DNA of 64,000 nucleotides. Source: Psammoneis japonica. Its lineage: Eukaryota. Position numbers and translations under genes: made by a program. Each line of letters opens with the position of its first letter. Within the stretch, counting starts at the first letter, position 1. The stretch is taken from NCBI GenBank assembly GCA_008632985.1, contig QPGO01000048.1, forward strand, positions 1-64,000, given 5' to 3'. Positions 27,101 through 62,717 of this stretch are shown here, piece by piece. The notes under the pieces were generated by a model, which was not told the DNA's origin, ran no database searches, and saw only the letters and a list, made by a program, of their open reading frames with translations.

Positions 27101-27212
27101 ACATGATCTGATGATGTGTGGATGGCAATGACTGATTGCAACCTTGTCACCTTGGTCTCTCCTTGCAACTTCATTGCCGCTGAGGTCTGTGTCTTGTTTG
27201 ACCTTGCACTCC
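24140..27212 (+). mobile_element. Degenerate Ty3/Gypsy LTR retrotransposon relic
   Basis: gag knuckle-like CPAH...WKHCIANP (~24820), protease-like MDLG (~25310), RT-like FAGH.DWVQ (~26020), integrase CIHDNGSGF...QANAVCECAHQTVGDIL (26323-26658) in PR-RT-IN order, and degenerate direct repeats at ~24237-24297 and ~27149-27210. Confidence 0.7.
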
Positions 27213-27799
27213 ACATGCAACTGACTGGAGACAGATGGGTGGGCTGGACCAGGGCCAGACAAAGTTGAGGTTTGGGCTGATCACTTCCAAAATGATTGAG
27301 TTTGCAAGAGAGCGATCTTTGCACATGAAACAGTGTCCAACAACTTTTGAAGGCTTCTGCATCATGCAAACAACACACAAAACATCTAAATTTTGCATTG
27401 CCTCAGAAGTCATTTTTTGGTTGGAAAATGACTGCACCTTCTGACCAATGGACTGGCTGTTTTTTCATTGCTTTTGTCATTGATCTTAAGAACAATTGAG
27501 TGCCAGTCTCTTCATGTCTTCAATTGTTCACCATCCTTGGTGGACATGCAAGATTCATCAACAGCAAGCGTGCTGCCATCAAAACTTCAAATCACAGTCA
27601 AGACAGAATCATCAAGAAAAAACCACCCAACCCTTGTTTCAATGCCTGACTCTGCAACTGTGGTGCAACACAACCCCAGATTTCCACTGCATTGTTGAGA
27701 ATTGGAACGGTGTGTTGCACGGTTGTCTGATGTGCTGCTGTGCTGCCTGTCTCACATTGACATTTTCATCTGCAGCAGGAGGAACCTGAGAACCTCCTT

Positions 27800-29300
27800 C
27801 TTGGAGCACTCTCATGCTGCACCCAGAATTGCTGAGAAACTTGCTCAATGCTGTGGCATTCCCTTTTGTTTTCCTGCCATCAAGTTTCCTCCTCAGACAC
27901 TGTTTTTTTTTCCTTTGGTGACTCCAGACAGAGCCACACCTGCCCCCACAATCCCAGCTCTCTCTGAAGTCAAAGTTGTTCACAATCAGGCTCTCAGCTG
28001 CCCTCCACTGGAGCTTGCAGAGGTGGCTGTGTGGTTCATGCCATTTTGCACAAAACTGGGAGCTGGGTCATTTGCATTCTCTTGTGGCTGATTCTCAGAG
28101 CTTTTTTTCAAGAACAAAACCCATCACAGAGACAGGAAAGTTGGCAATGCATGTCTCTTTCTTTGGAGCCAACTTGAGACTGACATCTCCCTGTTTTGTC
28201 CCTTTTCTCATGCCTCAAGATGGTGGGCTCAACTCATGAAACACAGGCTGAGCTGACCCAACAACCATCAATCCTCATCAACTCCAAATCTTCCAAAGAA
28301 ACACCTTTCTTCAGCTCAATTCCCCCAGAAACCAACAGGGCTGCTGGCCTGCTTTTCTCAACATCTTCATTGCAGATTGTTGCTTAGAGGGCAGCAATGG
28401 CAAAGCTTGAGAGGTGGGCCCACATGTCTGGATTTGTTGCCAGCTTGCTTGACATGGGCATCTGGACAGGCTGCAAACAAAATGTCCTCAGGCAGCTCAT
28501 TCTGAAATTTCACATGCTCCCACCTTGCATTTTGCCTCCTTTTCTGCTTGAGGTTGCTTGCGTAGATCACAATGTTGTGGGGGCTGGATGTGGCTGTACA
28601 AGAGATTTTGAGCATGTGTCCCCTCTTGCACCTTCTTTCAGAGCTTCACTTTGGCATTTCCCATGGGGTCAATGAGGTGGTCACATGCCAAGCACACTTT
28701 GGCAAAATGCTTGTTGCCTTCTCCATGTGCTGGGTCACCCAGCATGGCTTTTGCATTCCTGGCTGCTTTTTGCTTTTGTGGTGCCAGCATTGGCAACCAG
28801 CATGGAGGGTGCTAGAACAAGGAGCTTCATTGGGGGGTCACAAGGGCTCATCTTTCAAGAAGATTGTGGCAACTCTTGTGTCAAGAGAGCATCAAGGACA
28901 AGGGTGCACATGGGCTGCTGCTTGCATTTTGTTGAAAAAAATGTGAGGCGCTTCACGCAGATTTGGTTGCATGTGTTCATTCACTGAAAAAAGTGTGAAG
29001 CTGCTTTTTCATGTTTTTGTTCAAAGCTTTCCAAGTGATCAATGCAGATGTTGATGTTGGCTGAATGACATTGTTCAAATGTCCACAATGCTTTTCAAAA
29101 ACAAGTCAGCAATGCACCACAAGATGTGGGCAATGAGAGCCATGTGCTTTCATTTTTTCCTTTGTCAGACCATCTGCCTCACAGTTCCATTTTGACACTG
29201 ACACTGTAATTTACAAGCAGGTGCACACTTGGTCTTTTCCTTGCCAGCACCATGGCTGTTGACAAAGCAAGAAGCAAGAACAAGCAGCAGCCAAGACTCA
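27800..29300 (-). mobile_element. Degenerate Pif1-like SF1 helicase remnant (Helitron-like element)
   Basis: Fragmented motifs: FVNSHGAGK (Walker A-like, ~29250), IVD..MSF (~29080), PPLKLCHCCPL (~28400), KLQWR..ESLIV...W (~28000), VALSGV (VALSRV-like, ~27930). Confidence 0.55.
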
Positions 29301-31419
29301 CAAGAAGAGACACCAAGTCCAAAGAAGGCAAAAGAAGGAAAAGTGGCCTGCATGCCAGAGAAAAAGAGCCCTCCTCTTTGTGTTCAAACAATGGCCCTCA
29401 CAGTGTCACTCAGCCAGCTTGTGTTTGTGGACAAGGAAACAAGATTTGCTTTCTGGGGGCAGCTGAACAAGGGTGTGAGAAACAGACACAGCTGGTGGGT
29501 TGAGAGAAGGATGAAGATCTAAAGGAATTGGTTGGTTGTCCTGACTTGTCTGACCACAAGTGATTGTCTGACCACAATTGATGAGAACAATGCCAAGCCA
29601 CATCTTCAACTTCATCAGTTTGCATGTCACAAGTTGGGCAACAAGCCACAAAAAGACAACAAAAGTGCAAGACAGAGTGCTTTGTTGTTGATGATGAATT
29701 TGTGTTTGACATTGACATGTGCACTTTCTGCTCATTGCACTGGACCACTTGTGAGCAGCAAACAAGTGCCATTGTCAAGTTGACCAGAGAGGTGCATGAT
29801 GAAGATGATGCTGACCCAGCTCTTGTGCATGTGCCACCACACCATGTCTTGAGTTTGCTGGCAACAAACTTCCAAAGGAAGCCCAAGAGCATTGCAGGTG
29901 TCCTTCTCTCTAAGACTGACAAATGCAACAACATTCATCACAATTCTGGCATCTGCTGGCTCATTGTTGCTCTGTGCTTGCAAAGACAGTGAAACACAGC
30001 CATCCACCAGCAAAGCATCCACTCCAATTTGCACTGAAAAGTTCATCAATCAGTGCATTTGGGGAGCCTGCAGTGGCAATGCTGTGCCATGCAGTGTGCC
30101 AGCGGAGAGCAGAGAGTGAGCAAAAATTGCACTGGCAAATCACAAAACTTGCCAACAGGGCAGATGTTTTTCAGGCAGCTGCTGGCTGGCCCACCTGCCT
30201 GGCCTGGCTGGAGATGCCCCCACCCTGGCAGCTTCTCAAACAGCATGGGCAAAGCTGCATGATGACAACACTCAAGTGGACAGCAATTCCTTGAGTGAGT
30301 CTCCCTCTTGTGGCTCATGACTTTGACTTTGTGAGCTGCCTGCACAAGAGAAGTTTGCAAGCTGCACAGTGCAGCTTTTCATTGCCCTCCCTGTGCAGCT
30401 CACAACTTTGTGCACTGCACAAAGGAAGTTCACAAGCTGCGTGATGCAATGTTTCATGATGGAAGCACCCAACCTTGCTTGCTCAAAACAACACAAGAAA
30501 CAGACCATGACAGCAGCAGCAACAGCCAATGCCAGATTGTGCCACCAAACCTTTTCCCACCAAGAACACCAATGCATCACATGCCACAGCATTTTGCTCT
30601 GACAAATGCATCCATGAAAAGAGAGGTGAGACAAGTCAAAAATGGACGAAACTTCTTCTTTGACTTTGCTGTCATTCCTGCTTAAATCTCACAACTTTAA
30701 CAGCTGATGCTGATTTGCCACCAAACTTTTCAGGCCAACAATGCCAACATGTGACATGCTTTGTTGCACTCAGAAAAGTGCACACAAGAAAAGAGAGGTG
30801 AGAAAGAAGTCCAAAAATGGACAAACACTCCTTCCTCATGCTGAGATTTTGCAGACATTCACACTCTTTTTTCACAACTGTTGCATTTCAATTTGTTTGT
30901 TCTCAACAAATTGAAGAGTGCAGACCATTGCACAGATGATTGAGACTCGTTGTGATTTGTGATGCCAAGTGTTGGGCAGAGTTGGTTGGGTTGGCAAGCA
31001 GCCCACAGCAGGGTGAGGCAGGCTGGAGATGATGACGATGAGCAAAAGAGGATCAGGGGGGCAACTCAAGTGTGTGGAGCACTCATCATGGGAATCTGCA
31101 ATCTGCCACTTTTACAAAGGTCCAGGAACAACTGGCTGATGAGGTTGCTGTTGTCCTCTCTAAACATTTGAGTGACTGCCTGGGTTGGCTGACTTTTGAC
31201 TGCAGCGGCACCTGTGCAATTTCTTTCTGCAAAGATGTTCATGTGGCTTGAGATCCCCCACCTCTGAACATTGAGACAGCCGACAAGAGCCAAGGGGTTG
31301 CTCTCTGGCAAGGCATTGATTGATGCTTCTAAGGAAGGGAGTGTTCTTGATTCAGCAGACCCAAAATCTCAGTTGCAACAAGGCTTGGCTTCACTCAAAA
31401 GCCAGTGCATGTGAATTGA

Positions 31420-31662
31420 CTGCTGCTGGCATGACTGCTGCAACCACTGCCATTCTGACTGCTGCCATTGCAACTGCTGCTGTTGCAACTGCTGCCATTT
31501 TGACTGCTGCTGTTGCAACTGCTGCAGTTTGCAACTGGCACTGTTGTGAGCACTGCCATTTTGACTGCGTTGCAATTGCTGCCATTGCAGCCATTGCCAT
31601 TGTGGCAACCACGACAATTGCAACTGCCATTGTTGTGACTGCTGCCATTGTGACTGCCACTG
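31420..31662. repeat. Degenerate minisatellite of (G/T)CAACTGCTGCCATT / TGACTGCTGCCATT-like units
   Basis: Recurrent actgctgccatt / actgctgctgtt units visible in the sequence. Confidence 0.8.
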
Positions 31663-32049
31663 TTTTTAGACTTTTGTTGTTGCATTTGCCATCATTGGTG
31701 GGGCTGCAACTGTGGCTGTTCAGACCCTGCTGCTGTTGAAAAAGCTCAATTGTGCTCTTGCTTTTTGTGTCAATTGGCAATTTTCTCCACATCTTGTTTG
31801 TTCTTGAAATCCCATTTTGCCTGACTGCACCCTTCCTCTGTTTCCAGCACCCTCACACAAATGCTCCTCTTTTGCTTCACTGACAAGCAACTCTGCCATC
31901 CTTGCTTGCCATGACTTGCTTGAACATTTGCTGGTGAGCCTGGGGCATTTTGCTTTCATGCCAACTCTTCTTTGGCATCACACTTGTGGCCCCAAACAGG
32001 GTTCCTTGTCCTTTGATGTGGTCTGATCTTCTTCTGCCAGAGCCCTTTC

Positions 32050-33210
32050 TGCTGCCACCACTGCTGGTTCCACCCATGGCATGCTGGGGTGACAGGTGCT
32101 GAACAGTGAGTTCTTTAGATGTCAGGGGTCCATGGCAAAGGAGGAGGTGGGTCAACAGGGATGTGTGGTGGGAGGGTGGCATGGAGTGCACTGAGTGATG
32201 GAGAGAAGAAAGATGAGCCAAGAGTGTGGACAGACAGTTGGGAGGAAGAGTTGTCAGTGACAGTTGGGTGTCAAAGAAGGAGAGTTTGGCATGCAGAGAG
32301 GTGGTTCAAGAGAATGACACTGAAGTTGAGGCTGAGGATTTGTGAAGCCCAAAGTTGGGGGGTTGCACGGTGTGATGGGAGGTGCCAAAGTGGTCTGGTG
32401 ACACTTGCTTCTGGGTGATGTTGGAGTGGGTGAGGAAGTTGGAGGGGGGTGGGAGCGAGCATTTGAAGGCAGAAAAGGAAGCTTGGGAGTTGGAGAGGGA
32501 AGATGGATCAGCCCAAGGTGGCTTGGGAGGGAGAGGAGGGATGCCGGAGGAGGATGTTGTGGTTTGTGGTTGAGACACCAAAAAAGAAGATGTGGAAGTG
32601 GCGTCCAGGCCAATGCCACCTGGGTGATCAAAGGTGAAAGGGAGGAGGAAAAGTCCTGCTTGATTGACAGTGTCAATGATGTCAGAGCAGCAGGCGGATG
32701 ATGCAGTGCGACCAATGAGCTTGTCCCGTGTGCTGCTGAGGCGAGCCTTGTTTGACAGGTTTTCAGGGGCAGGCAAACCAGGCGCAGGAGGTGGGGGAGC
32801 TGGCAGTGCAGCAACATCAATGGCTGGAAATTGGTGGCTTGATGGGGCTTCCGACGGTGCAGAACCAAGCACAAATTGAGCACCAATGTTGGCGGGGTGT
32901 TCCAAGGGGTGGTCGTCCACTGACAAGAAGACCGGTGGGGTCTGGATGAACTTGTTGTCGAGAGTGGCACAGACCACCAAGGGGGGCCAGTGTTTCAATG
33001 ATGGTGCAGATGATGGTGTCATGGATGTGGTTTGAAAAAGGGCTCTTGTGCATTTTGGGGCAGGTGAAAGCACGGTCTCCGCAAGGGGCGGTCTGGGCAG
33101 GTGTGACCGAGTGGACAGTCGTGTTGGAGCAGATCAGGAGAAACAATGGGGAGCCACAGCTTGAGGAGAAGGAGAAGTGTGAACAGGGTTGGTGGGAGTT
33201 GGTTTGAGGC
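32050..33210 (-). mobile_element. 3' fragment of an RLE-type (CRE-like) non-LTR retrotransposon
   Basis: CCHC-like PCGDRAFTC.K.HK...SNHIHD, followed by HPANIG (RPAD-like), AIDV and LLPFTFDHPGGIG restriction-like endonuclease motifs. Confidence 0.6.
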
Positions 33211-33528
33211 ATGTAGTCGGGAGAGAGAGTAAAGGCATGAGGATCGTTCCAACACTTTGTTATTTTGGCGAGTTGACGACGGCTCCTCTCGCTCGCTTTT
33301 TATTTGTTCTTCTTCCGCACCACTTAGGTACAGCTTACAGACCTCCCAGTCATTGGGAGTGCGCGGCTGCCGCGGCTTTATCGATCGCTTTTGGCTTTTC
33401 CCCCTCCCCGCCCGCCCCGCGGCCGCGGCCGCGCTCATTCATACATCGGTGTTGCCGAACTTCCAACATTTATACAAAACAAACAACACACCACTCCACT
33501 CAGCAAACAGCGACAAGCAACCACAGAG

Positions 33529-39196: not shown

Positions 39197-40945
39197 TTAT
39201 GAGCCAAGTTCCTCGGTGAGAAAATATGAGATTGCTTGATTCCACCAATTTGGTAGGGGCGCTTCAACGTCAATGTCATATTCAGTGATGCACAATCATG
39301 AGGTATGCAGCAAGAATCGCTGCTGCTCACCATCCACCGGCAAAGCGGCAACATGGGCCAACGAGTCTCTGTCGTCGCTTGTACTTGAATAGTCGGTGTC
39401 AAAGAGAATGGGGAATCCCAATCCTTCGGCACAGTGAACTCACACTTGATGTTTCCTTCCAGCACGAGTTTCGATTCGAAGACACACAGGGCAGAATCAC
39501 TGCATTCTTCAACTGCAGCAAAGGTAGACTGGGGTGTGCCGACTTCCCGTGCACTGGAATGTCAATCTCCCCATGAAAAGGGATTTCCTTTGCACTGGCA
39601 GCTGCCACAGTCAAGCAGCTCTTTTTTGCTTTGCAAAAAAAAAGAATTCAGCAACAAGCTTTGCATTCATTTCATCAGTTTTTGCAAGTGCAGTGCAGCC
39701 AGGTGTCCTGCGATCAATTCTGTGAACAAGGCCCCTTCTTTCATGATTGAGTGCTGAAAGCGGGACATTGAAATGATCCAGGAAATCCTCCAAAGATGCA
39801 TCAAAGCATGTCCTGGATTGCTCTCACCCTTTCTTTAAACTGGAAGATCTTTGCAAAGAAAGAATTCAGCAACAAGCTTTGCATGCATTTCATCGGTTTT
39901 GGCAAGTGCAGTGCAGCCAGATGTCCTGCGATCAATTCTGTGAACAATGCCTCTTTCTTCATGATTGAGTGTTGAAAGCAGGACATTGAAATGATCCAGG
40001 GCATCCTCCAAAGATGCGTCAAAGCATGTCCTGGATTGCTCGCACCCTTTCTTTGAACTGGAAGATTGCATTCTTCCAGCCGAAGTCTTGCATCTCCTGT
40101 TGAAGCATGCCACACCAGGCAGTTTGATGCAACCACTGCACTCCCAGATCAATGCAAAAATTGAAAATCAAGGCCACACAAGTCTCAAAGCAGTTCTTCC
40201 ACATCCTTGACTTGTGCTGCTCAGCCCTTGCATTGAGTTGCAGCCCTTGCATGATGGCATTTTGACCCTCCTTTCTTCTTGATCAGTTTTCCATCATTTT
40301 CCAGCTTTCTCCAAAACTGGGTTGGCTTGTGACACAGTGAGGGAGCCATCAGATGCAAGGCACAAAGCTGAGCACACCAGCAACAAAACACCATGACATC
40401 AGGGCATGTTTCAATGGATTTGGACATGTCCCAAGCCAGCAGATGAGCTCCCCGGATGCAGCATCGTCAGCCAGACAACCAGACCCTGTGAAAGCACGCA
40501 AAATTCCAGACAGCTCAGGCTTGTTGTTTTCTGCTGCATCAAGTGATGTGCATTGACCAGGTCTTTGGGTGAAAGTTCAAGTGGCAATGTGTTGCAACAA
40601 ATCCAGAACAGCGTCAGTCTCACCAGCCATGGTGTGAACTTTCTTGGCATGGTCAGATGGGTCATTCATCAAAACAAGCAAACACAAGGGCTTGCTGCTG
40701 CTGCTGCTGCTGCCACTGTGCAAAGCACTTTCACAACCCAAAGGCTGGTCCATGGTGCACTCAGAGATGTCTGCATGATGACAAACCAACTGCTTTGAAA
40801 TGTCTTCCTTTCCAGGCACATTTGTGCTGCCTCTGACACCATGCCCCAATGCTCAACAGCTGACAATGTTCAAGCATCAACATTGAAAAATGGGGCCAGA
40901 GCAGCTGACAACCATTGACATCATCTCTGTCTCAATCTTCATCAT
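39197..40945 (-). pseudogene. RluA/RluD-family pseudouridine synthase pseudogene with internal tandem duplication
   Basis: KLPGVACF (motif I), GIVHRIDRRTSGC (motif II, twice), ETRAGRKHQV*VHCAEGLGFPILFD (motif III), RFLLHTS*L...VEAPLP.WW; in-frame stops and frameshifts; 5' end approximate. Confidence 0.85.
39641..40066. repeat. ~218-bp-period tandem duplication
   Basis: aaagaattcagcaacaagctttgca...aactggaagat occurs at 39641-39848 and again at 39859-40066. Confidence 0.95.
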
Positions 40946-41039
40946 GGGATTCATTTGTTGAGAGACCATGCCCGATGAGCGCTCACAGGGGGGGAAAGCA
41001 GGTGCCTTCTTCATTTGTTTTCATGTCCAGCTGTGCCAG

Positions 41040-41998
41040 CTTTTCATGCCATCATGTTGTGGTGCTGAGTGTTGCTTTCAGTGTTTGATTGTGTGGTGTT
41101 TGGTGTGTGGCACACAGGGCCAGAATTGTGCCCCCATGCAGGCCAACTTAGCAAGGACTTGCACATTTCAGAGCAGCAGAACAAAATCCAAAACTTGCTG
41201 CTCTCACTGTGCCTGTGCTCATGGCAGCCTGAGCCACAATTGGCAGCAACCTCTGTCATTCAGTTGGCAGCAACCTTCATCAATTGGTGGCCACAGGCTC
41301 AGGCACTCAACCTCCCTCTCAGCTTTCAGTGACACCCCAATCTCAACAATCTCAACGAAGGGAACCTCCATCAGCTGGCAGTGACATCTCTGTCAACTGG
41401 CAGCAACCTTCATCAATTGGTGCAAACAGCACCATTTGTGCCACACAATGGGTGACAACCATCAACATCACCTCTGCCTCAACCTCAATGTCCCAAAACT
41501 CATTTGCTCAAGGACCGCGCCTCTGCCAACCTCTTGGCACATCCCTCTCTCATGCAGCTGCCAGGGGTCTCTGGTTTGTGTGTTCTCAGGTGAAGTGGCC
41601 TTTCCAACTTGCTTCTATCCACCCCCTCTTTGTGCTGTCACTTTTGTCATGCTGAGTGTTGCTTTGAGTGTTTGATTGTGTGGTGGGGTCCAGTGCATGT
41701 GTGGTGTGCATCAAGCAGGGCTGTTGTCATGCCCACATGGACCAATTCAATGAGGACTTGCACATTTCAAAAAACACAAAATCCAAAACACCATTCTCAC
41801 CATGCCTGCACTCTTGGCAGCCTGAGTCAATTGGCAGCAGTGACCTCCATGAATTGGAGCGATGCAAGTGACACCAGCACTTGTGCCATGCAACAGGCAA
41901 CAACTTCCTCCTCAATCTCAATCCTAAAACTTGTCTGCCAAGGGACTATGCCTGCCGAGCTCTTGGCTTCCATCTCTCTAGCAGCTGCCAGGGCTCTC
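41040..41998. repeat. Degenerate nested direct repeats, TpA/CpG-depleted
   Basis: gctgagtgttgcttt.agtgtttgattgtgtggtg at ~41064 and ~41651; tggcagcaaccttcatcaattggtg at ~41265 and ~41398; cagctgccaggg at ~41555 and ~41982. Confidence 0.8.
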
Positions 41999-54380: not shown

Positions 54381-54678
54381 GGTCTGAAGCGGCGGCTGAG
54401 CGAGAAGCTCATCATCTATCTTCTCTCGTTGCTCGTCGTGGCAATCATCCGCACCGCTTCCACCATGCTTGTTTGGCGTGCGCTCGCGCGCGCGAGCGCG
54501 GAATCTGTCGACGCGAAAGCACGGCCGACCATCCGACATCGGACGTTTTCAAGTTTTGGTGGTGATGGCATGACGCATGACCATCACAATGATGAGCGAT
54601 AGCGCTGAGATTACGTCGTCTTTCTGAAACTCATCATTCGTTTGCGCTTATTGTACTGTCAGCCTTGTCATTATCAAC

Positions 54679-55533
54679 ATGAGCATGCTCATCAACTCGT
54701 TCCTTGTGCAAGGCGCGGGCGCAGCGCTGGCCAGTGGACTGAACACCGTTTCATCCCTTCCACTCGACGCTCTTGTTCTCATGTCTCTCGGAGCGGACTT
54801 TCCCACTTTAATTAACACTGTCGACAAAGCCAACATTGACTGTCCTGTCCATCTTACCGAGACGTATGGAATCATTGGGCATGATGATGATTTGGGACGC
54901 AACGTTGAATTGATGGAAAAAGGGCGAGGCCAAGAGCATGGATTTCAGGGCGGCAGTGGCGGGCAAGGATGTCTTGCACCAGCATTTTCACAAGGAGCGG
55001 TTGCTGGACACATGGATTCTGCGGTCCCTCAAGACGCATCCTCTTTGATGGTGATTGCCGACACATCTGGTGCTTTTGCAGAAGTGTCGGGAAAATTGCC
55101 TCTGCACTGTGGTGGGATCACAAAGGAGGCTTGGTTTCTAAACAATGGCGAACTCGAGAAAGTCCCTTGCTTTTGGGTGGCCAGCCAATCGCGCGATTGT
55201 CCAATCGGTGCACCAGCGTTCAAGGGCGATGCCAGTGAGGCGACAGAAGCCCCAATGTCAAAGCTCCCTTCAGGATGGCAACCCAGTGGACAGGTCGGTC
55301 TGTTTCCATGTCATGCACGCGGTGTGAATCATTGCGGTGCCGAGAATGTAGAAGTGGATGCCATTGCATCACTTCTTTCAGAGAAGGGTTCTGCTCCTCA
55401 CATTTTTGGCATGTTTGCTCACGGCGAACTCGGTCCGTCTAGCTTCAGTGGGTTCATGAACGAGAAGAACGACATTGAGTGCGAGAAACACAGCATGACG
55501 AGCATTTTGTCAATCCACACGTCAGTGGGTGAG
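54679..55533 (+). CDS. FIST-C domain protein, interrupted 3 codons before its stop by the Copia insertion and hypermutated
   Basis: LFPC.ARG...E...IFGMFAHGELGP (FIST-C). The native end GCG TCC AGC TGA lies after the 3' TSD at 62118-62129. Confidence 0.75.
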
Positions 55534-55880
55534 TGTGACAATGTTCATGTTTGCATGTTTTTACAACAACATCGGACCTCCACGATTCAAATCAGAGATC
55601 CAAGATTCGAACCCCGTGTGCGATGCTCAGTCTCGAATCCCGCGGAAGCCGAGTCACGAATGCGATGTTTGTTCCCAGCTTCGCGCTTGTTCAACTTCGC
55701 GTTTCCTTTAGATGGCAGCTGCATCTGCTCATAAAAACTGCTCACAATCTTTCCAATGCACTGATTGTCACCTCTCAACTTTTGGTGCAACAAAGTTGCT
55801 GATTGATTGTTGTGTCGCAATCACAGCTTTTAATCACTGAAAGTGCAGACGAATCTTAGAATTCCGGCTACTTTCCCACA
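55534..55880 (+). repeat. 5' LTR
   Basis: tgtgacaat...ctttcccaca; 338/347 identical to the 3' LTR by manual alignment. Confidence 0.97.
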
Positions 55881-55954
55881 CGCTTCCTCTGCGAAACCCA
55901 CAAGTTAAGTCAATCGATCTTAAGCTCTCGATTCTACTTCACTCTGCTGTCACC

Positions 55955-57462
55955 ATGGTCACGCAGACACGAACCGCGGCTGCTCTAGCTGCCTCTGTTG
56001 CAGCTCCCGCTGCTGCACCCGCTGCAGCTCCCACCACTGCTGCTGCTCCGGCAACAGCACCTGCTCCTGCAGCCGCTCCAGTTGCTCCTGCACCTCCCCC
56101 AGTCGTTCCTCCCGGTGCACCTCCAGGAGGAAGTGGCGGAGGAGGTGGAGGAGGAGGCGGAGGTGGAGTCCCACCAGGTGGAGTCCCGCCAGGTGGACCA
56201 CCATTGGCACCTGTGCCACCACTGCCGATCTTCGCGTTGACTCCAGGTCAACACCGTCCCAACAACTTCATCGACTGCGGCACATCGCAAGGCCTCAAGC
56301 TTTGGAACGCCGCTGCTGCACCGCTGCCACACGAGTTCAACGGCGATTCAGAAGGTCTCAAACGGTTTTGTGAGACACTCAGTCAACGAGCTGCCGAGGC
56401 AGGATGGAAAACAGGGGCAAGAGACATGCTTGCCATTCCCGACGCGAATGGAACTCCACGAGATCTCATCTCCGAGTGCGGGCTGCTCACTCTGCAGGAT
56501 GTGAGAACCCACGCGAACACCTTCGCGAATCCACCTGCGCGACAAGCACAGAACAATGTGCAGATGGCCGAGGCGATCTCTCAATCCCTTGCGGAGGAAG
56601 CAAGAGACAAGACATTGGCTGAGATGGATTCCCACACGATCAATGGAAATCAAATCGGCACACTGTTCTTCAAGCTGCTTGCGCAAAAGGCCATCGTTGA
56701 CACACGCTCTGCCACCAACTGCTTCCGCGAGAACTTGTCAAGCCTGGACACGTGCATGGCGGCTGTTGGCTCGGACATCGAAGAGTTCAACAAGTGCGCC
56801 AAGCTCAACGTTGACGGACTCCAAGCTAGAGGAGAGCAGTGCGACGACCTTGTCATGAACCCATTCAAAGGATGCACCGCAGCTGCTGACGAAGCATTCG
56901 TCAAGCACATCATGTCACACAAGGACAGGTGCGACGACGGTGAGGAATTCACGCCGACACAAATCATGACGTTGGCACTGAACAAATGTGTTTGACCTCA
57001 AGCGCGAGAAGAAGTGGGGAGCACTGTCACCGGCTGAAGAGCAAATCGTCGCGCTTGCAGCCAAGGTAGACTCCATTTGAGGATCAGAACCTTCAGCCAT
57101 CTAAAGCTTTGAAGGCCAAGGCTGGTTCAATCAAGGAAAGAAGCACACGGTCAAGGAAGACCAAGACCACTCCACGTCAGAGACAGAAAGCGGACGAAGC
57201 CTGGAAGAAAGTCCCGCCCAAGGAGGACGCTCCCAAGAAGACAGTGAACGGTCATCAGTGCTGTCACAAGCGCGTCAACAATCGCGACTGTCACTGGTGC
57301 CCACATCACACTGCTTGGGTCATGCACTTGCCTGATGATCCGGGCAACCAAGGCTGTAGACTCCGCAAGCAACAGTCTGCTCCATCCACAGACACGTCGG
57401 ACAAGAAAGTCTCCTTCGCAAGTGCTGTCTCTGCCATCCCAAACGAAGTGGATCAAGAGTGA
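55955..57462 (+). pseudogene. Copia gag (frameshifted near 56990 and 57078; no Tyr in the two main ORFs)
   Basis: FALTP...IDCGT..GLKLW, PFKGC..AAD..FVKHI, WKKVPP, WCPHH..W..H motifs of CoDi-type gag. Confidence 0.85.
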
Positions 57463-60400
57463 CTGCTCTGCAGGTTCACTCTGACACTGCTGCTGTCCTT
57501 GCAGACAGCCGTCACTGTGTCAGTGCTCCTGATGGCGGTCGCTGGCGTCATGAAATGTGCAGCATCGATCTGGATCATGCTGCTGTTCATGATGCCATCC
57601 CTTCCTTCAGAAAAGTGCAAGCGCCTGTCACATGCCGCAATGACGCTGGGTGAGTGGGTCATCTCACATGTCCTGGCTGAACTGGGCACAAGACAAGTTA
57701 AGACTTGCCAGCGACGGCCAACGACGAGGTGCTGCGCACGGCATCATGCGTCGACGAGGCCAGGTCACCGCTCCAGAGTGGCCACCAAGAAGGCTCACTG
57801 TGTCATTGCACGACACAAGACGGTTAGAGCGTGCAACTCAGCCACACCACACCGTCCCGAGCGAACGGAGCCCACTTGCGATTCGGACTCATTCGCAATC
57901 GGCGTCGACTCGCATTCTTCCTGCACCATGTCCAACAACGAGGCACACTTCATTGGTCCTCTTCGCAAATCCAACAAAGTGGTGCTCGGTGTCAAGGGCT
58001 GCTTGCGTGCTGAGGGAGAAGGAACAGTGCAGTGGGCAATTGAGGACGACATGGGACGAGTGCACAGCATTAAAATTCGAGACGCACCCCATGTGCCGGA
58101 CTTGCCTCATTGTCTTCTCTGCCCGCAGCAATGGAGCCAACAAGCTAATGACCACACGCCAGAGCCTCACGGAACCGTGTCTTGGACCAGGGACGACGGA
58201 CCATTGCTGATGTGGGACCAGCGCAAGTGCCATCGCCTGATTCCATTGTCCGCCAACTCTAACGTCGCCAAGATGCGCTCCGCACCCGGTTCCAACAAAT
58301 GCCGGACCTTTGCAGCCGCTGTCGAAGAACAAACCGACATCGAAACTATCGAGCACGTGGCCTGTCAAGCTCACATCATGCCACCAGACGACGAGAGCAT
58401 TGCGAATGATGACGAGGCTGCAATTGATGCAGACGTCTTCAGAAGTCCATCCGAGACACGTCCTTCTGAGACGCAAGACGCACGCAACACTGCTGATGAG
58501 GATGCTCCTGTCTCATTTGAGCCAACAGACGGAGCAAGTCGTTCAGACTCAGACGAGGAAAACCTGAGGGATTTCACGACACCGGAGGTGCAGCAGGACT
58601 TGCCGGAACCCATCAACATCATACCAAATGATGACGCCCTTGCTGCCACAGATGACCAGGGTGAACTATTGCGTTGGCATTGCCGCCTGGGCCACATGTC
58701 ATTCAAAATGATAAAGCCATTGGCCGCCCTAGGCATTCTACCGAAACGCCTTACAAAGGTGCACAACCCAAAATGTGCCGGCTGCCCATACGGTGCCATG
58801 ACGAAACGACCATGGCGATCCAAGTCCAAGCGGAACCGACGAATCCACTTGGCAACTTCGCCTGGAGAAGCCGTATCCGTCGACCAGCTCGAGAGTCCTA
58901 CTCCTGGATTGATCCCACAGCTCAAAGGGAGACCTACGAAACAAAGGTATCGAGCAGCGACAATTTTTGTTGATCATTTCAGCGGATTGGGGTGCATGTA
59001 TTTGCAGAAAGGACTTACCTCAGCCGAGACGCTCGAAGCCAAGCACGCTTTCGAGGCATTCGCACGCCGGATGCACGTCCGTATTCAACACTACCACGCC
59101 GACAATGGAAGATTTGCTGACAATGCTTTCATACAAGACGTCAAGAAGCAACAGCAAACAACATCCTATTGTGGGGTCAACGCCCACTTCCAAAACGGCA
59201 TCGCGGAGAAAAGAATGAGGGACCTCCAAGAGCAATCTCGGAAGCAACTCCTGCATGCAAAAGTGAGATGGCCAACGGCTATTGAGTTGAACTTATGGCC
59301 AAGCGCTCTCAGGAACTCAAACGAGATCAAGAATCACTTACCAAATCACGAGGACGGCTCTTCTCCGCTGGAACGTTTCTCGTCCGTCAAGGTCCAGCCT
59401 AATCTCAAACAACACCATACCTTCGGCTGTCCCGTCTACGCCTTGCACAACCGGTTGCAGGGAGGAGGTAGGCTGCCTAAGTGGGACCCAAGGGCAAGGT
59501 TAGGAATCAATTTGGGACCATCAACAAGACACGCAGGTTCAGTTACCTTGGTTCTGAATTTGCAGACCGGACTCGTATCGCCGCAATTTCACGTACAATT
59601 TGACGACTTCTTTGAGACTGTTCGTCCATCTGCTGGGAATCCTCCTACATTCTCACAATGGCAAGGCATTACAGGTTTCAGACAACTCAAGACAAGGAGC
59701 ACTTTCAACATCTTTGGGAAATCAAGTGACGTACCGGTTGAGGGATTAGTCCCTACCACAACGGAACCACCTGAGCCGAATTCGGATATCCCGTCTCAGC
59801 TGCTGCATCCTACTGATACGTCTACCACTGATGACTCATTTGATAATGCCCAACCGGATGATGAAATGCTATACACGCCTCCAGATGATTCTGACGCACC
59901 ATCTGAGCCACAGCGCACTATGGGTCAACCCAGTACCAGTAGGTCCGGCCGACAACGACGCCCGACCGAAAGGATGCGCGAGAGCCAACTACAACGGGCT
60001 CAAGGCATTGTCTCCTACAATGCAGAGGCAGAGGCATATTATGATGCGATGCACGAGGATGATTACAAACTGCAGGACGATATGGACTCACCTATCTCTT
60101 TTCTGGCGAGCTCGGACCCCGACACCATGTACTTTGATCAGGCCATGCGTGAACCTGACAGAGACGAATTTATCAGGGCCTGTGTTAAGGAGGTCAATGA
60201 TCATATTGAAAGGAAACATTGGATACTCATTCCAAGAGAGGACGTACCTGACGACGTCGATGTTCTCCCTTCGGTATGGTCTATGAAGCGCAAAAGAGAC
60301 ATTAAGACCCAAGCCGTCTACAAATGGAAGTCCCGACTTAATGTGCACGGCGGAAAGCAAGAGTATGCTGTCAACTACTTCCAGACCTACTCTGCCGTGG

Positions 60401-61722
60401 TCTTCTGGTTCACTATCCGGCTCCTACTGATCATTGCCATTCTTAAGAAGTGGCATACACGCCAAATCGACTTCGTTCTGGCGTATCCGCATGCCGATAT
60501 CGAATATGATATGTACATGGAGTTGCCTGCAGGAATTGAAACAAAATATGGCAATGGTAAGACTCATGTTCTGAAGTTGCTCAAGAACTTATATGGACAG
60601 AAGCAAGCAGGGAGAGTATGGCAAGAACACTTACGTGATGGATTGTTAAGGATTGGTTTCGTACAATCGGCGGTTGATGAGTGCCTGTATTTTCGTGGCA
60701 ATGTCATTTTCATTCATTATGTCGATGACGGTATCTTTGCATCCCCTGACAAGTCTGCTATTGACAAGGCGATACAGGATATCAGAGATGAGAATTTTGA
60801 TATTGATGATCAAGGCACTCTGGACGACTATCTCGGTGTCAACGTCGAGACACTACCAGACGGCAGAATGAAACTTACCCAACCTCACCTTATCAATCAG
60901 ATACTGGAGATGGCCAATATTCCAAAGAGACTACCAGATAAGTCTACTCCTGCTCCTTCCTCCAAGATCCTCCACAGGCATATGAGTGAGCCTGCTTTCC
61001 AAGGGAGCTTTCATTACCGATCCATCATCGGCAAGCTCAATTTTCTGGAGAAGAGCACTCGACCGGATATCGCTTACGCGGTGCACCAAGTCGCACGCTT
61101 TTCTTCCGATCCCAAGGTTTCTCACGGTGAAGCCGTACTATGGCTCTGTAAGTACCTAAGGTCAACCAGAACTGAAGGTATTATACTACAGCCCTCAACG
61201 GACAAGTCCCTTGAAGTTCACGCCGACGCGGACTTTGTGGGCAATTGGAATAAGCTGACTGCACCCGATGACGTCGGCACTTCCAAATCTCGAACTGGGT
61301 TTGTCATCACCTATGCAGGGTGTCCGATTGTCTGGACGTCCAAGCTACAGACTCAGATCGCGCTCAGCACTACTGAAGCTGAATTTATCGCTCTTTCGGA
61401 AAGTCTTCGAAGCGCCATCCCAATTATGAACCTCATTCAAGAATTTATGGATCACGGTCATAATGTCCCTTCCAAGACACCAGTCGTACATTGTAAGGCT
61501 TTTGAAGACAATTCTGGAGCATTGGAGATCGCGAGATTGCCTAAGATGCGTCCTCGGACAAAACACTTCAACCTCACTCTCCACCATTTTAAAGACCATC
61601 TTCGCAAAGGTCTCATATCAATCCTACCAATTGATACGGCGGATCAGATTGCAGACATTTTCACCAAACCTCTACCACAGAATCTCTTCATTAAACACAG
61701 GAAATCGCTCCTTAAGTGGTAA
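57463..61722 (+). CDS. Copia pol: protease, GAG-pre-integrase, integrase, RT, RNase H
   Basis: IGVDS, WHCRLGH, VSVDQ...HADNG...NGIAE, QIDF..AY, LYGQKQAGR.W, YVDD, DADF, STTEAE, EDN, ADIFTK. Confidence 0.95.
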   Translation: MLCRFTLTLLLSLQTAVTVSVLLMAVAGVMKCAASIWIMLLFMMPSLPSEKCKRLSHAAMTLGEWVISHVLAELGTRQVKTCQRRPTTRCCARHHASTRPGHRSRVATKKAHCVIARHKTVRACNSATPHRPERTEPTCDSDSFAIGVDSHSSCTMSNNEAHFIGPLRKSNKVVLGVKGCLRAEGEGTVQWAIEDDMGRVHSIKIRDAPHVPDLPHCLLCPQQWSQQANDHTPEPHGTVSWTRDDGPLLMWDQRKCHRLIPLSANSNVAKMRSAPGSNKCRTFAAAVEEQTDIETIEHVACQAHIMPPDDESIANDDEAAIDADVFRSPSETRPSETQDARNTADEDAPVSFEPTDGASRSDSDEENLRDFTTPEVQQDLPEPINIIPNDDALAATDDQGELLRWHCRLGHMSFKMIKPLAALGILPKRLTKVHNPKCAGCPYGAMTKRPWRSKSKRNRRIHLATSPGEAVSVDQLESPTPGLIPQLKGRPTKQRYRAATIFVDHFSGLGCMYLQKGLTSAETLEAKHAFEAFARRMHVRIQHYHADNGRFADNAFIQDVKKQQQTTSYCGVNAHFQNGIAEKRMRDLQEQSRKQLLHAKVRWPTAIELNLWPSALRNSNEIKNHLPNHEDGSSPLERFSSVKVQPNLKQHHTFGCPVYALHNRLQGGGRLPKWDPRARLGINLGPSTRHAGSVTLVLNLQTGLVSPQFHVQFDDFFETVRPSAGNPPTFSQWQGITGFRQLKTRSTFNIFGKSSDVPVEGLVPTTTEPPEPNSDIPSQLLHPTDTSTTDDSFDNAQPDDEMLYTPPDDSDAPSEPQRTMGQPSTSRSGRQRRPTERMRESQLQRAQGIVSYNAEAEAYYDAMHEDDYKLQDDMDSPISFLASSDPDTMYFDQAMREPDRDEFIRACVKEVNDHIERKHWILIPREDVPDDVDVLPSVWSMKRKRDIKTQAVYKWKSRLNVHGGKQEYAVNYFQTYSAVVFWFTIRLLLIIAILKKWHTRQIDFVLAYPHADIEYDMYMELPAGIETKYGNGKTHVLKLLKNLYGQKQAGRVWQEHLRDGLLRIGFVQSAVDECLYFRGNVIFIHYVDDGIFASPDKSAIDKAIQDIRDENFDIDDQGTLDDYLGVNVETLPDGRMKLTQPHLINQILEMANIPKRLPDKSTPAPSSKILHRHMSEPAFQGSFHYRSIIGKLNFLEKSTRPDIAYAVHQVARFSSDPKVSHGEAVLWLCKYLRSTRTEGIILQPSTDKSLEVHADADFVGNWNKLTAPDDVGTSKSRTGFVITYAGCPIVWTSKLQTQIALSTTEAEFIALSESLRSAIPIMNLIQEFMDHGHNVPSKTPVVHCKAFEDNSGALEIARLPKMRPRTKHFNLTLHHFKDHLRKGLISILPIDTADQIADIFTKPLPQNLFIKHRKSLLKW

Positions 61723-61765
61723 GACGTTTTCGAGTCATCATTCCACCCGACATTGTTGAAGGGAG

Positions 61766-62112
61766 TGTGACAATATTCATGTTTGCATGTTTTTACAACA
61801 ACATCGGACCTCCACGATTCAAATCAGAGATCCAAGATTCGAACCCCGTGTGCGATGCTCAGTCTCGAATCCCGCGGAAGCCGAGTCACGAATGCGATGT
61901 TTGTTCCTAGCTTCGCGCTTGTTTAACTTCGCGTTTCCTTTAGATGGCAGCTGCATCTGCTCATAAAAACTGCTCATAATCTTTCTAACGCACTGATTAT
62001 CACCTCTCAACTTTTGGTGCAATAAAGTTACTGATTGATTGTTGTGTCGCAATCACAGCTTTTAATCACTGAAAGTGCAGACGAATCTTAGAATTCCGGC
62101 TACTTTCCCACA
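61766..62112 (+). repeat. 3' LTR
   Basis: Direct repeat of 55534-55880, followed by TSD gtgag. Confidence 0.97.
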
Positions 62113-62717
62113 GTGAGGCGTCCAGCTGAGTCGCTTGAGTTGAGTCCATTATTTAGGCTACATTGCAACACATTGTGTCTTTTACGGGACACTTTTTGTC
62201 GCAACTGTATCAAGCCTAACAGTTGCATTTAAAACAAGACATTTACAAATCACAGAGATTACAGCACCTGCATCTTCCTTGAAAACTTTTCAGGCTTATG
62301 GCAGTTGATGAATAGAGACTCTAACACTGGAGCTCTCGCGGTCGGTCGTACTGTACGTATTGTACGTCGGGCGGGCGGTCCAGTCCCGATTCCCTACAGC
62401 ACGTGATTCAAAACGAGATAGTGCCATTCTGACGTTCTACGCGCTTCTCAGTATGTCTCCATGTACCTTATTTCAGTACGAACAGTTTGTCGTATGTAGG
62501 GTTTGTACTCAATCCTACGGCCTGACGGGACCCGGCGTTGGAAGCACAAAGTCAGAAGCGAAGCACGCACACACAGAACAAAAAGCACGGCAACAAAGAC
62601 GAAGTTGTTGCCTGTGTCATTTGCGTCGTCGGAGTTCCCTCGTCCTCTGCACCGACCGCAGAAGCAACCGTACCGTATCAAGTTCAAGGACATCAGAGAC
62701 TCAGCGACTGGCATTGA

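What the first reader, a model, noticed from the sequence alone, without database searches (positions are those of the whole stretch)
55534..62112. LTR pair captures a directional TpA->TpG/CpA mutator in action: a RIP-like system with A->G chemistry
The two LTRs were identical at insertion. Manual alignment gives 9 differences, and in every one the 5' LTR has lost a dinucleotide that the 3' LTR keeps. TA->TG at 55543, 55767 and 55798; TA->CA at 55676, 55692, 55745, 55754 and 55791; CG->TG at 55757. There are no other substitutions or indels, so the element is young and the process is fast and specific. TA->TG and TA->CA are the same event (A->G 3' of T) on opposite strands, which points to chromosomal dsDNA rather than RNA or cDNA editing. 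Fungal RIP does the reverse (CpA->TpA) and 5mC decay only removes CpG, so neither explains this. Inference: a TE-targeted adenine deamination or adenine-modification pathway. I know of no description of one, but I cannot search the literature.
Basis: partly seen in the sequence, partly recalled or inferred. Interest (0 to 1): 0.97.

Follow-up and report, generated by a model that had tools for sequence, protein, structure and literature searches.

The report
TpA-erasing hypermutation at diatom retrotransposon
A young jumping gene in a diatom genome, and part of the host gene beside it, have had nearly every TA step rewritten to TG or CA, which is the reverse of the fungal RIP defence and a kind of local DNA mutation I could not find described.

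Summary
The two 347-bp LTRs (55534-55880, 61766-62112; TSD GTGAG) differ at the 9 sites named. Eight are TA in the 3' LTR against TG/CA in the 5' LTR, and one is CG against TG. Two sequences alone give no direction, and ordinary RIP in the 3' LTR was the obvious rival.

- The 5' LTR lies in a roughly 3.8-kb tract (about 54850-58800) with TpA observed/expected 0.08-0.14, against 0.60 in the background. CpG there is kept.
- In this tract pol has 0 Tyr, against a mean of 10 in 70 homologues. Conserved Tyr codons read CAT or TGC.
- The tract runs about 680 bp into a conserved single-copy host gene, where conserved Tyr has also become His or Cys.
- A read-derived contig matches part of that mutated flank exactly, and another contig carries an empty-site allele.
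- Two older tracts (23961-33214 and 39525-41925) have lost both TpA and CpG, and repeats inside them show TG-versus-CA double differences.

The host is a diatom. The chemistry (A to G or T to C) cannot be told from sequence. Targeting to transposons is plausible but not shown. Nine literature searches found no description.

The parts
55534..55880 (+). 5' LTR (347 bp, TG..CA). Holds the derived TG/CA at 8 former TA sites, all within 55543-55798.
61766..62112 (+). 3' LTR (347 bp). Keeps 14 TA. Preceded by polypurine tract GAAGGGAG at 61758-61765.
55529..55533 (.). Target-site duplication GTGAG, left copy. The right copy is at 62113-62117.
55841..56995 (+). gag-like open frame (384 aa, no Pfam hit, 0 Tyr). 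It ends in TGA. The frame is then broken near 57077 and again by a stop at 57460-57462.
57463..61722 (+). pol open frame (1419 aa) with Pol_BBD, gag_pre-integrs, SH3_retrovirus and RVT_2, the Ty1/copia domain order. Residues 1-387 carry the hypermutation.
54850..58800 (.). Young hypermutated tract C. TpA o/e is 0.13 in the host flank, 0.14 in the U3 part of the LTR and 0.08 in gag-pol up to 58622. It fades out by about 58800. CpG is kept (o/e 0.77-1.05).
55831..55986 (.). Spared island inside tract C (end of LTR, primer-binding region and leader up to the gag ATG). It holds 6 TA, o/e 0.58, and 3 of 3 LTR TA sites here are kept in both LTRs.
54628..55533 (+). Conserved single-copy host gene (about 285 aa; FIST-like by the names of distant hits) with the element inserted at its 3' end. 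From about 54850 its conserved Tyr codons read CAT, TGT or TGC.
23961..33214 (.). Old tract A (9254 bp). TpA o/e 0.03 and CpG o/e 0.11, with CA 1.86 and TG 1.80. The CpG-free core is 24596-32368, and the shoulders have intermediate CpG (0.30 and 0.36). No protein family was found in any frame.
39525..41925 (.). Old tract B (2401 bp). TpA o/e 0.03 and CpG o/e 0.14. It contains dispersed internal repeats with TG-versus-CA double differences, and a broken pseudouridine-synthase fragment in its left shoulder.

Best explanation
The element is a young Ty1/copia (diatom CoDi-like) LTR retrotransposon, inserted at the 3' end of a conserved host gene in a diatom genome.

After integration, a local process acted on the chromosomal duplex over about 3.8 kb straddling the element's 5' junction. 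It converted roughly nine in ten TpA steps into TpG or CpA. The choice between the two products was made independently at each site. The 3' half of the element, the 3' LTR and the right flank were not touched, and that is why the LTR pair differs at 8 TA sites.

One hit turns the self-complementary TA into TG/CA, which is no longer a substrate. This explains why no CG is made and why TG/CA acts as a sink.

Older tracts in the same window have gone to completion. They have also lost CpG, most simply by slower 5-methylcytosine deamination in a methylated core.

Shown: the pattern, its direction, its regional extent, its spread into single-copy DNA in cis with the insertion, and its independence from strand.

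Inferred:
- That an enzyme recruited to the locus does it. The candidates are an adenine deaminase with 5'-T preference, as in the TadA/ADAT2 family, or a thymine-modifying or oxidising activity whose product mispairs with G.
- That the locus is chosen because it holds a transposon or repeat.
- That the effect is silencing, by erasing TA-containing signals and Tyr codons. For example, AATAAA became AACAAA at 55791.
For: (1) Regional profile.
- 1-kb windows at 56-58 kb have TpA o/e 0.02-0.10, against 0.57-0.74 at 59-62 kb inside the same element.
- By segment, TpA o/e is 0.13 in the host flank, 0.14 in LTR U3 and 0.08 in gag-pol, against 0.63 in the element's 3' part, 0.51 in the 3' LTR and 0.70 in the right flank. 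There are 10 TA observed against 108 expected in 55987-58622 (P 7e-34) and 5 against 28 in 54850-55533 (P 1e-7).
- Only TA, CA and TG change. The other 13 dinucleotides stay near background, and the sum of the four pyrimidine-purine steps is conserved, 3.80 against 3.83.

(2) Direction from protein outgroups.
- pol residues 1-387 have 0 Tyr, against mean 10.0 (range 1-21) in 70 homologues. His is 18 against 10.4 and Cys 16 against 6.5.
- The 3 conserved-Tyr columns upstream of 58700 read CAT, TGC, TGC. Downstream, 20 of 28 keep Tyr.

(3) Direction from the family.
- Of the 40 best-supported differences between the window and read-derived contigs, 30 lie at or before 58787. Of those 30, 21 are window CA/TG against contig TA.
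- None of the 10 further downstream is of that type.

(4) Single-copy flank.
- The host gene has 92 homologues.
- Across 60 aligned homologues, Tyr is 2 against mean 8.5 (range 5-12). Conserved Tyr has become CAT (54850, 54937), TGT (55108) and TGC (55333; Tyr in 60 of 60). Val became GCA (55210) and Leu became CCA (55252).

(5) Reads.
- A 330-nt contig of run X1 matches 54881-55210 with 0 differences, so the mutated codons at 54937 and 55108 stand in read-derived contigs.
- A 544-nt contig of X2 joins 55088-55528 to 62113-62215, an empty site. This is deduced from its 103 unaligned letters and the matching bin depths of 1.06 and 0.92.
- That contig differs from the window at 17 places in the flank and has T at 55491, where the window has C.

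(6) Old tracts.
- Four repeat pairs inside tracts A and B show 21 adjacent TG-versus-CA double differences, against 3.5 expected (maximum 12 in 2000 permutations). There are only 9 adjacent double transitions of all other types.

(7) Strand independence.
- Among 29 polarised sites the outcomes are 14 CA and 15 TG, with 19 runs against 15.5 +/- 2.6 expected.
- TG/CA run statistics in the tracts lie within the background range.
Against: - All of this rests on one 64-kb window and one sample. No whole genome is held.
- Inside the multi-copy element I could not confirm this copy's own bases with reads. At several sites no X1 contig showed the window's base (for example 57984, 445.6 of 445.6, and 58179, 673.5 of 673.5). 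The tool warns that contigs drop rare variants. X1 held only 0.65 of the sampled words.
- At 55491 the only contigs listed show T.
- The direction for the 8 LTR sites themselves is inferred from the tract they lie in. No row for either LTR appeared among the 40 differences shown, and 587 more were not shown.
- 71 metagenomic loci with relatives of the element show no such tract. The lowest 1-kb TpA o/e across them is 0.21. That search was biased, because both search peptides contain or allow Tyr.
- Tract A has no recognisable transposon protein, so a link to transposons is shown for one tract only.
- No enzyme, DNA modification or repeat dependence could be examined.
Confidence: 0.68

Rival explanations
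1. The TpA-to-TpG/CpA hypermutation is real, but it is not a transposon-directed defence. It would be a by-product of a local chromatin or DNA-modification state, for example thymine hypermodification at TpA in silent chromatin. Alternatively it would be a one-off event tied to repair at the insertion, which happens to overlap the element.
For: - The tract is not coextensive with the element. It covers about 680 bp of host gene and only the 5' 3.1-3.3 kb of the element, and it spares a 156-bp island.
- Tract A has no recognisable transposon content.
- Shoulders with intermediate CpG around CpG-free cores look like chromatin domains.
Against: - All three tracts touch repeated or mobile DNA to some degree: the copia element in C and dispersed repeats in B.
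- The empty allele appears unmutated, so the change is in cis with the insertion.
- A break-repair event with single-strand exposure should give strand-coordinated runs, and none are seen.
Confidence: 0.17
2. Assembly or base-calling artefact. Modified bases in silent DNA were misread by long-read base calling and were left uncorrected in repeats.
For: - At many internal sites every X1 contig listed shows TA where the window has TG/CA.
- X1 holds only 0.65 of the window's sampled words.
- The affected tracts are partly repetitive, where short-read polishing is weak.
Against: - An X1 contig with word depth 36.5 equals the window over 54881-55210 with 0 differences, including two outgroup-polarised Tyr-to-His/Cys codons.
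- Strand-specific miscalls of a palindromic site would leave a mixture including TA and CG. They would not give a clean loss of TA with no CG gain.
- The 3' half of the same repeat copy is unaffected.
- X1 contigs at single-copy-like word depth differ from the unmutated 3' part by 34-56 substitutions with 0 gaps. The overall spectrum among X1 contigs is 536 transition places against 72 transversion places, so transition-rich copies exist in the reads themselves.
Confidence: 0.1
3. Reverse direction. Ordinary RIP-like or cytosine-deamination changes (CpA to TpA) hit the 3' LTR, and the 5' LTR is ancestral.
For: - With two sequences the direction is free.
- Under this reading all nine differences would be C:G to T:A, a single chemistry.
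Against: - The 3' LTR and its surroundings have ordinary TpA (o/e 0.51-0.70), not an excess, while the 5' LTR sits in a tract with TpA o/e 0.08-0.14.
- Outgroup proteins show Tyr lost to His/Cys in the 5' part and in the host gene.
- Read-derived contigs show TA where the window has TG/CA at 21 of 30 sites.
- The host is a diatom, not a fungus.
Confidence: 0.02
4. Editing before integration. ADAR- or ADAT-type A-to-I editing of the element's RNA, or deamination of cDNA intermediates, was fixed by reverse transcription.
For: - Adenosine deaminases of the ADAT2/TadA kind prefer U before the target A (recalled, not tested).
- Contigs of X2 suggest abundant transcripts or copies from the opposite strand.
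Against: - The changes fall on both strands at interleaved sites.
- The two LTRs of one integrant differ.
- The tract extends into the host gene upstream of the element.
- The 3' half is untouched.
Confidence: 0.03

Closest known systems
Repeat-induced point mutation (RIP) of ascomycete fungi
   Same: - Dense, transition-only mutation of a mobile element in its chromosomal place.
- Dinucleotide-specific, with both strands hit.
- Spill-over into adjacent single-copy DNA, and permanent inactivation.
   Different: - The direction is opposite. RIP makes TpA from CpA/TpG; here TpA is destroyed and CpA/TpG is made.
- The target base is A or T, not C, so a cytosine methyltransferase-like enzyme cannot be the agent.
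- G+C rises slightly instead of falling (0.544 in the tract against 0.482 in the element's 3' part).
- No stop codons can be created.
- The host is a diatom.
- Only part of one copy of a multi-copy family is hit.
5-methylcytosine deamination at methylated CpG in silenced transposons
   Same: - The target is a self-complementary pyrimidine-purine step, and the same sink products TG/CA result.
- It probably explains the CpG loss in old tracts A and B and the single CG/TG LTR difference.
   Different: It cannot remove TpA. In the young tract CpG is kept (o/e 0.77-1.05) while TpA is nearly gone.
APOBEC3-type hypermutation of retroelements
   Same: Context-specific deaminase signature recorded in integrated retroelement copies.
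   Different: APOBEC3 acts on minus-strand cDNA before integration and gives G to A on one strand only. It does not touch flanks, and it affects both LTRs in step with their synthesis. None of that holds here.
TadA/ADAT2-ADAT3 adenosine deaminases and fungal sexual-stage A-to-I mRNA editing (recalled from general knowledge)
   Same: Preference for a U or T immediately 5' of the edited A would give exactly TA to TG.
   Different: These are RNA enzymes. No natural DNA-acting member is known to me, and no such gene could be looked for because no genome is held.
Thymine modification by TET/JBP-type oxygenases, giving 5-hydroxymethyluracil or base J (recalled from general knowledge)
   Same: A modified T in silent DNA, with a reported liking for T before A in some protists, could mispair with G and give TA to CA.
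   Different: It is known as an epigenetic mark, not as a hypermutator. Nothing here tests it.

Membership tests
Ty1/copia LTR retrotransposon | Identical-at-birth LTRs with TG..CA ends, a 5-bp target-site duplication, and a polypurine tract before the 3' LTR | tested here: met
   347-bp LTRs, TSD GTGAG, GAAGGGAG at 61758-61765
Ty1/copia LTR retrotransposon | pol with integrase upstream of a copia-type reverse transcriptase (RVT_2) | tested here: met
   gag_pre-integrs at residues 394-444 and RVT_2 at 927-1154, E 9.8e-37. 1313 homologues were found, the best at 69% identity.
Fungal RIP | C:G to T:A transitions, mostly CpA to TpA, raising TpA and lowering CpA/TpG | tested here: not met
   Opposite direction. 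TpA o/e is 0.08-0.14 and CA/TG 1.33-1.69 in the tract, and outgroups show TA was ancestral.
Fungal RIP | Mutation can leak from the repeat into adjacent single-copy DNA | tested here: met
   About 680 bp of the conserved host gene is affected. This is a likeness in behaviour only.
Fungal RIP | Depends on sequence duplication, acts before meiosis, and needs a RID or DIM-2 type cytosine methyltransferase | not testable with these tools
   No genome is held and there are no crosses. The host is a diatom by its best named protein hits.
CpG decay by 5mC deamination | Loss confined to CpG, giving TpG/CpA | tested here: not met
   8 of 9 LTR differences and the whole young tract concern TpA, with CpG kept. 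It is met only for the CpG part of tracts A and B.
Pre-integration editing (APOBEC on cDNA, ADAR/ADAT on RNA) | Changes on one strand only and confined to the element | tested here: not met
   14 CA and 15 TG outcomes are interleaved, and the host flank is affected.
Sequencing or assembly artefact | Independent accurate reads show TA at the sites | tested here: inconclusive
   The flank is confirmed as in the window by an exact 330-nt contig (54881-55210). For sites inside the multi-copy element, this copy could not be told apart from the family.

The most novel reading that the evidence does not exclude
Diatoms, or at least this one, possess a heritable genome-defence pathway that marks a new transposon insertion and rewrites every TpA in a several-kb domain of duplex DNA to TpG or CpA. 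The agent would be a natural TA-specific adenine (or thymine) base editor. This erases TATA-like and AATAAA signals and all Tyr codons without making AT-rich DNA or stop codons. It spreads some 0.6-0.9 kb into neighbouring genes. It leaves TA-free, later also CpG-free, TG/CA-rich fossils as a datable record of past invasions.
Probability: 0.4. Interest if true: 0.95.

Novelty: categorically new. Interest (0 to 1): 0.86.

Why it matters
If real, this is a second, chemically unrelated solution to the problem that RIP solves in fungi, found in a major group of marine algae.

- It would imply a natural enzyme that changes A:T to G:C in chromosomal DNA with strict TpA specificity. To my knowledge all known natural DNA hypermutators deaminate cytosine, so such an enzyme would interest both mutation biology and base-editing technology.
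- It predicts a simple genome-wide signature, TA-free tracts rich in TG/CA, that can be searched for in any assembly. That signature would confound LTR-based dating, gene prediction (no TAA or TAG stops, no Tyr) and selection scans.
- It shows collateral damage to a neighbouring host allele, which bears on the cost of carrying transposons.

Tried and rejected
- Whole genome: none is held for this window, so no genome-wide spectrum and no search for deaminase or oxygenase genes was possible.
- Earlier notes of this scan: nothing on this genome or this LTR. A word search returned only unrelated phage cases.
- Other copies in the window: none. This holds for blastn and for purine/pyrimidine-only alignment that is blind to transitions. 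That alignment also found no likeness between tracts A or B and the copia element, and no terminal repeats around A.
- Identity of tracts A and B:
  - 58 open frames of 90 aa or more gave only three weak or partial Pfam hits.
  - A six-frame read-through with X at stops gave none in A and only a PseudoU_synth_2 fragment in B.
  - tblastn with 121 copia proteins against the window outside the element gave 5 hits, all with E 0.005 or worse.
  - The protein atlas gave no usable hit for 25406-26005.
  - The whole-library HMMER job on the open frame 32817-33212 gave 2 weak hits, E 4e-5 and 3e-4, too few for a Tyr test.
- Relatives elsewhere: 71 metagenome loci have no TA-free tract, but the search peptides contain Tyr, so hypermutated copies would be missed.
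- Strand-coordinated clusters: not found.
- Extended sequence motif around converted TA sites: none seen by eye in the 29 contexts.
- Retained TA sites against the segments skipped in X2 contigs: 3 of 10 fall in them, which shows no enrichment.
- Expression: no RNA holder listed.
- Literature: nine searches found no description of TpA-to-TpG/CpA hypermutation. So did passages of PMC2806351, 10.1101/2025.10.24.684338 and PMC9258296.
- Failed searches: two searches failed on term syntax.


Full report
**What is there**

The flagged interval is a complete Ty1/copia LTR retrotransposon.
- Its LTRs are 55534-55880 and 61766-62112: 347 bp each, TG..CA ends, no indel between them.
- It is flanked by a perfect 5-bp target-site duplication, GTGAG.
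- A polypurine tract, GAAGGGAG, sits just before the 3' LTR.
- The internal part has a 384-aa gag-like frame and a 1419-aa pol frame with Pol_BBD, gag_pre-integrs, SH3_retrovirus and RVT_2.
- pol has 1313 homologues in the large protein collection. The best is 69% identical, and nearly all come from unnamed metagenome records.
- Host genes in the window have their best named relatives in diatoms: Fragilaria, Thalassiosira, Amphora, Fistulifera, Pseudo-nitzschia and Seminavis. The host is therefore a diatom, not a fungus.

**The observation**

- Eight are TA in the 3' LTR against TG (3 sites) or CA (5 sites) in the 5' LTR.
- One is CG in the 3' LTR against TG in the 5' LTR.
- With TA sites making up 8.1% of possible transition targets, 8 or more of 9 has P = 1.5e-8.
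- In 17 LTR-like repeat pairs from metagenomic relatives, only 25 of 245 differences were of the TA type. Ten of those pairs had no difference.

**Direction**

Two sequences cannot say which LTR changed. The simplest rival was RIP-like CpA-to-TpA mutation in the 3' LTR, under which all nine differences would be C:G to T:A. Five lines of evidence reject that rival.

1. The dinucleotide profile of the window.
   - TpA observed/expected is 0.02-0.10 at 56-58 kb and returns to about 0.6 at 59-62 kb within the same element.
   - By segment it is 0.13 in the 684 bp of host DNA left of the element, 0.14 in the U3 part of the 5' LTR and 0.08 in 55987-58622.
   - It is 0.63 in the element's 3' part, 0.51 in the 3' LTR and 0.70 in the right flank.
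   - The 3' LTR therefore sits in ordinary sequence, and the 5' LTR sits in a tract that has lost TA. Only TA, CA and TG depart from background there.
2. Protein outgroups for pol.
   - Residues 1-387 hold no tyrosine, against a mean of 10.0 (range 1-21) in 70 aligned homologues. There is an excess of His (18 against 10.4) and Cys (16 against 6.5).
   - The three conserved-Tyr columns upstream of 58700 read CAT, TGC and TGC. Downstream, 20 of 28 such columns keep Tyr.
   - The gag frame has no Tyr in 384 residues.
3. Read-derived contigs of the family.
   - Of the 40 best-supported differences shown, 30 lie at or before 58787. Of those, 21 are window CA/TG against contig TA.
   - None of the 10 downstream differences is of that type.
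   - 587 further differences were not shown.
4. The host gene in the left flank.
   - The open frame 54628-55533 is a conserved protein of about 285 aa with 92 homologues.
   - Against 60 of them it has 2 Tyr where they have a mean of 8.5 (range 5-12).
   - Conserved Tyr has become CAT at 54850 and 54937, TGT at 55108 and TGC at 55333. The last of these is Tyr in all 60.
   - Val has become GCA at 55210 and Leu has become CCA at 55252.
5. Relatives elsewhere. No metagenomic relative has TpA o/e below 0.21 in any 1-kb window. The TA-free state is therefore not a family trait, although that search was biased towards intact copies.

**Is it in the DNA or only in the assembly?**

One search found three coded runs of a single sample, and they were laid on 54300-62700.
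- A 330-nt contig of X1 equals the window over 54881-55210 without a single difference. That stretch has one TA where about nine are expected, and it includes the Tyr-to-His codon at 54937 and the Tyr-to-Cys codon at 55108. The mutated flank therefore exists in read-derived contigs.
- A 544-nt contig of X2 aligns to 55088-55528 and has 103 further letters. The X2 depths of 1.06 and 0.92 in the two bins right of the element equal 5.4 x 55/281 and 5.4 x 48/281. The remainder therefore lies on 62113-62215. This contig is an empty-site allele.
- That contig differs from the window at 17 places in 441 nt. A neighbouring X2 contig (54604-55097) differs at 15.
- The window has about 27 fewer TA than expected over the same stretch. 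X2's spectrum over all its laid contigs is strongly one-sided: 88 places with window C or G against contig T or A, 18 the other way, and 5 transversions. By these counts, at least 9 of the 32 flank differences must be of the first kind.
- Both X1 and X2 show T at 55491, where the window has C. An X1 contig of 1929 nt stops aligning exactly at 62113, which also suggests an empty site in X1.
- I read this as an insertion-bearing, mutated allele beside an empty, unmutated one. That places the change in cis with the insertion and after it.

What remains open is the element's interior.
- The family is multi-copy: 1169 contigs were laid, and summed word depth is hundreds to thousands, against about 57 in the flanks. 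The tool warns that this is no copy number.
- At several sites no contig shows the window's base. Contigs drop rare variants, so this neither confirms nor refutes this copy's bases.
- X1 contigs with word depths of 41.6 and 55.7, close to the roughly 57 seen in the flanks, differ from the unmutated 3' part by 34 and 56 substitutions with no gap. Across X1 there are 536 transition places against 72 transversion places. Transition-rich copies are therefore present in the reads themselves.

**Anatomy of the young tract**

- It starts near 54850, the first converted conserved Tyr. TA sites at 54855 and 54865 are still kept.
- It is dense to 55334, then thin between 55335 and 55533, with 2 TA kept and 1 converted.
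- It converts 8 of 11 TA in 55534-55830.
- It spares a 156-bp island, 55831-55986, which holds 6 TA. This island covers the end of the LTR, the primer-binding region and the leader up to the gag ATG.
- It removes about 91% of expected TA in 55987-58622 (10 observed against 108 expected).
- It fades between 58622 and about 58800, where converted and kept sites are mixed.
- CpG is kept throughout (o/e 0.77-1.05), and no excess CpG appears, so both strands of one TA are not hit.
- TG and CA outcomes alternate as if chosen independently: 14 against 15, with 19 runs against 15.5 +/- 2.6 expected.
- This copy is in any case dead. It has a complex small change at 57077 relative to the family and in-frame stops.

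**Older tracts**

The same window holds two larger tracts, 23961-33214 and 39525-41925.
- TpA o/e is 0.03 and CpG o/e is 0.11-0.14, while CA and TG are 1.8-1.9. All other dinucleotides are near background, and the sum of the four pyrimidine-purine steps is unchanged.
- Each has a CpG-free core (o/e 0.06-0.08) flanked by shoulders of 560-850 bp. These shoulders have no TA but intermediate CpG (0.28-0.36). This echoes the roughly 680-bp spread into the flank at the young tract.
- Repeats inside these tracts give an independent test. If two copies of one sequence were mutated in place, an ancestral TA (or CG) should often be TG in one copy and CA in the other.
- Four repeat pairs show 21 such adjacent double differences, against 3.5 expected by permutation (maximum 12 of 2000). 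There are only 9 adjacent double transitions of all other kinds.
- A 218-bp tandem duplication at 39637-40067 shows none, so it is younger than the mutation.
- What tract A once was is unknown. No protein family appears in any frame. Tract B's left shoulder holds a broken pseudouridine-synthase fragment.

**How it most likely works**

Shown:
- a regional, TpA-specific, transition-only change of chromosomal duplex DNA;
- both strands hit at random;
- self-limiting at each site, because the product is not a substrate;
- fast relative to ordinary divergence, with one other LTR difference in 347 bp;
- in cis with a new insertion.

Inferred:
- An enzyme is recruited to a domain nucleated near the element's 5' end.
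- TpA is its own complement. The same products therefore follow from A to G at the A (adenine deamination to hypoxanthine, with the 5'-T preference typical of TadA/ADAT2 enzymes) or from T to C at the T (a modified or oxidised thymine that mispairs with G). Both of these points are recalled, not tested, and sequence cannot separate them.
- CpG loss in the older tracts is most simply slower 5-methylcytosine deamination in a methylated core.
- The likely effect is silencing. The changes remove TA-containing signals (CATAAT became CACAAT at 55745, and AATAAA became AACAAA at 55791) and every Tyr codon. They cannot create stop codons.
- Iyer et al. 2011 (PMC3239186; passages read) describe stramenopile-specific deaminase-SAM-Tudor proteins. 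This is a lead for the enzyme, nothing more.

**Comparison and novelty**

- The process works like RIP in logic: in-place, dense, dinucleotide-specific transitions with leakage into flanks.
- It fails RIP's defining feature, because the direction is reversed and the target is not cytosine.
- It is not CpG decay, not APOBEC-type cDNA editing, and not an imprint of RNA editing.
- Nine full-text searches and three papers searched for passages gave no description of such a process.
- Subscription-only literature was not searchable.

**Verdict**

- The adenine chemistry and the aim at transposons are open.
- I put the reality of a local TpA-erasing hypermutation at about 0.85. That sums the transposon-directed reading (0.68) and the real-but-not-directed rival (0.17).
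- An assembly artefact stands at about 0.10.
- Reverse-direction RIP and editing before integration share the remaining 0.05.

Noticed in passing
window 55986-60762 (joints listed): Contigs of run X2 (kind on record only as a guess, 'DNA?') lack at least 14 listed short segments of 70-114 bp of the element, and 6 more joints were not shown. Read on the minus strand, these segments begin with GTAAGT-like and end with AG-like sequences, as introns of a spliced antisense transcript would. In the hypermutated part of this copy the donors read GCAAGT. No X1 contig shows these joints. Either X2 is RNA-derived, or DNA copies without these segments exist.
   Followed up: partly
window 57060-57090: The window copy reads CCATTTGAGGATC where most family contigs read CCATCAAGGATC (631 of 690 word depth for a 1-nt difference in length). 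This small complex change shifts the frame between gag and pol.
   Followed up: partly
window 39637-40067: A 218-bp tandem duplication inside a broken RluA-type pseudouridine-synthase fragment. It is 92% identical in full and 97.7% when transitions are ignored. It has no TG-versus-CA double differences, so it arose after the hypermutation of tract B.
   Followed up: partly
window 31422-31664: An array with a 15-nt period (GCTGCTGCCATTGCAACT-like, 10 overlapping 48-nt members) inside tract A. In one frame it reads as Ala/Thr/Ile/Val-rich low-complexity peptide.
   Followed up: no
window 18507-19541 (-) and 21301-22014 (+): Two divergently oriented AIM24-family genes about 1.8 kb apart.
   Followed up: no
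window 51347-51639: A tandem pair of about 144 nt, 95% alike when transitions are ignored, in otherwise ordinary sequence.
   Followed up: no
window 59877-60271 and 61495-61773 (X1 contigs): Contigs with word depths of 41.6 and 55.7, close to the roughly 57 seen in the flanks, differ from the window's unmutated 3' part by 56 and 34 substitutions with no gap. They may be other copies of the family that were hypermutated in their 3' parts. Their base changes were not shown.
   Followed up: no
L053, about 4400-5400: A metagenomic relative's contig has a 532-nt TA-free gap outside the pol match. This is the longest among the 71 loci.
   Followed up: no
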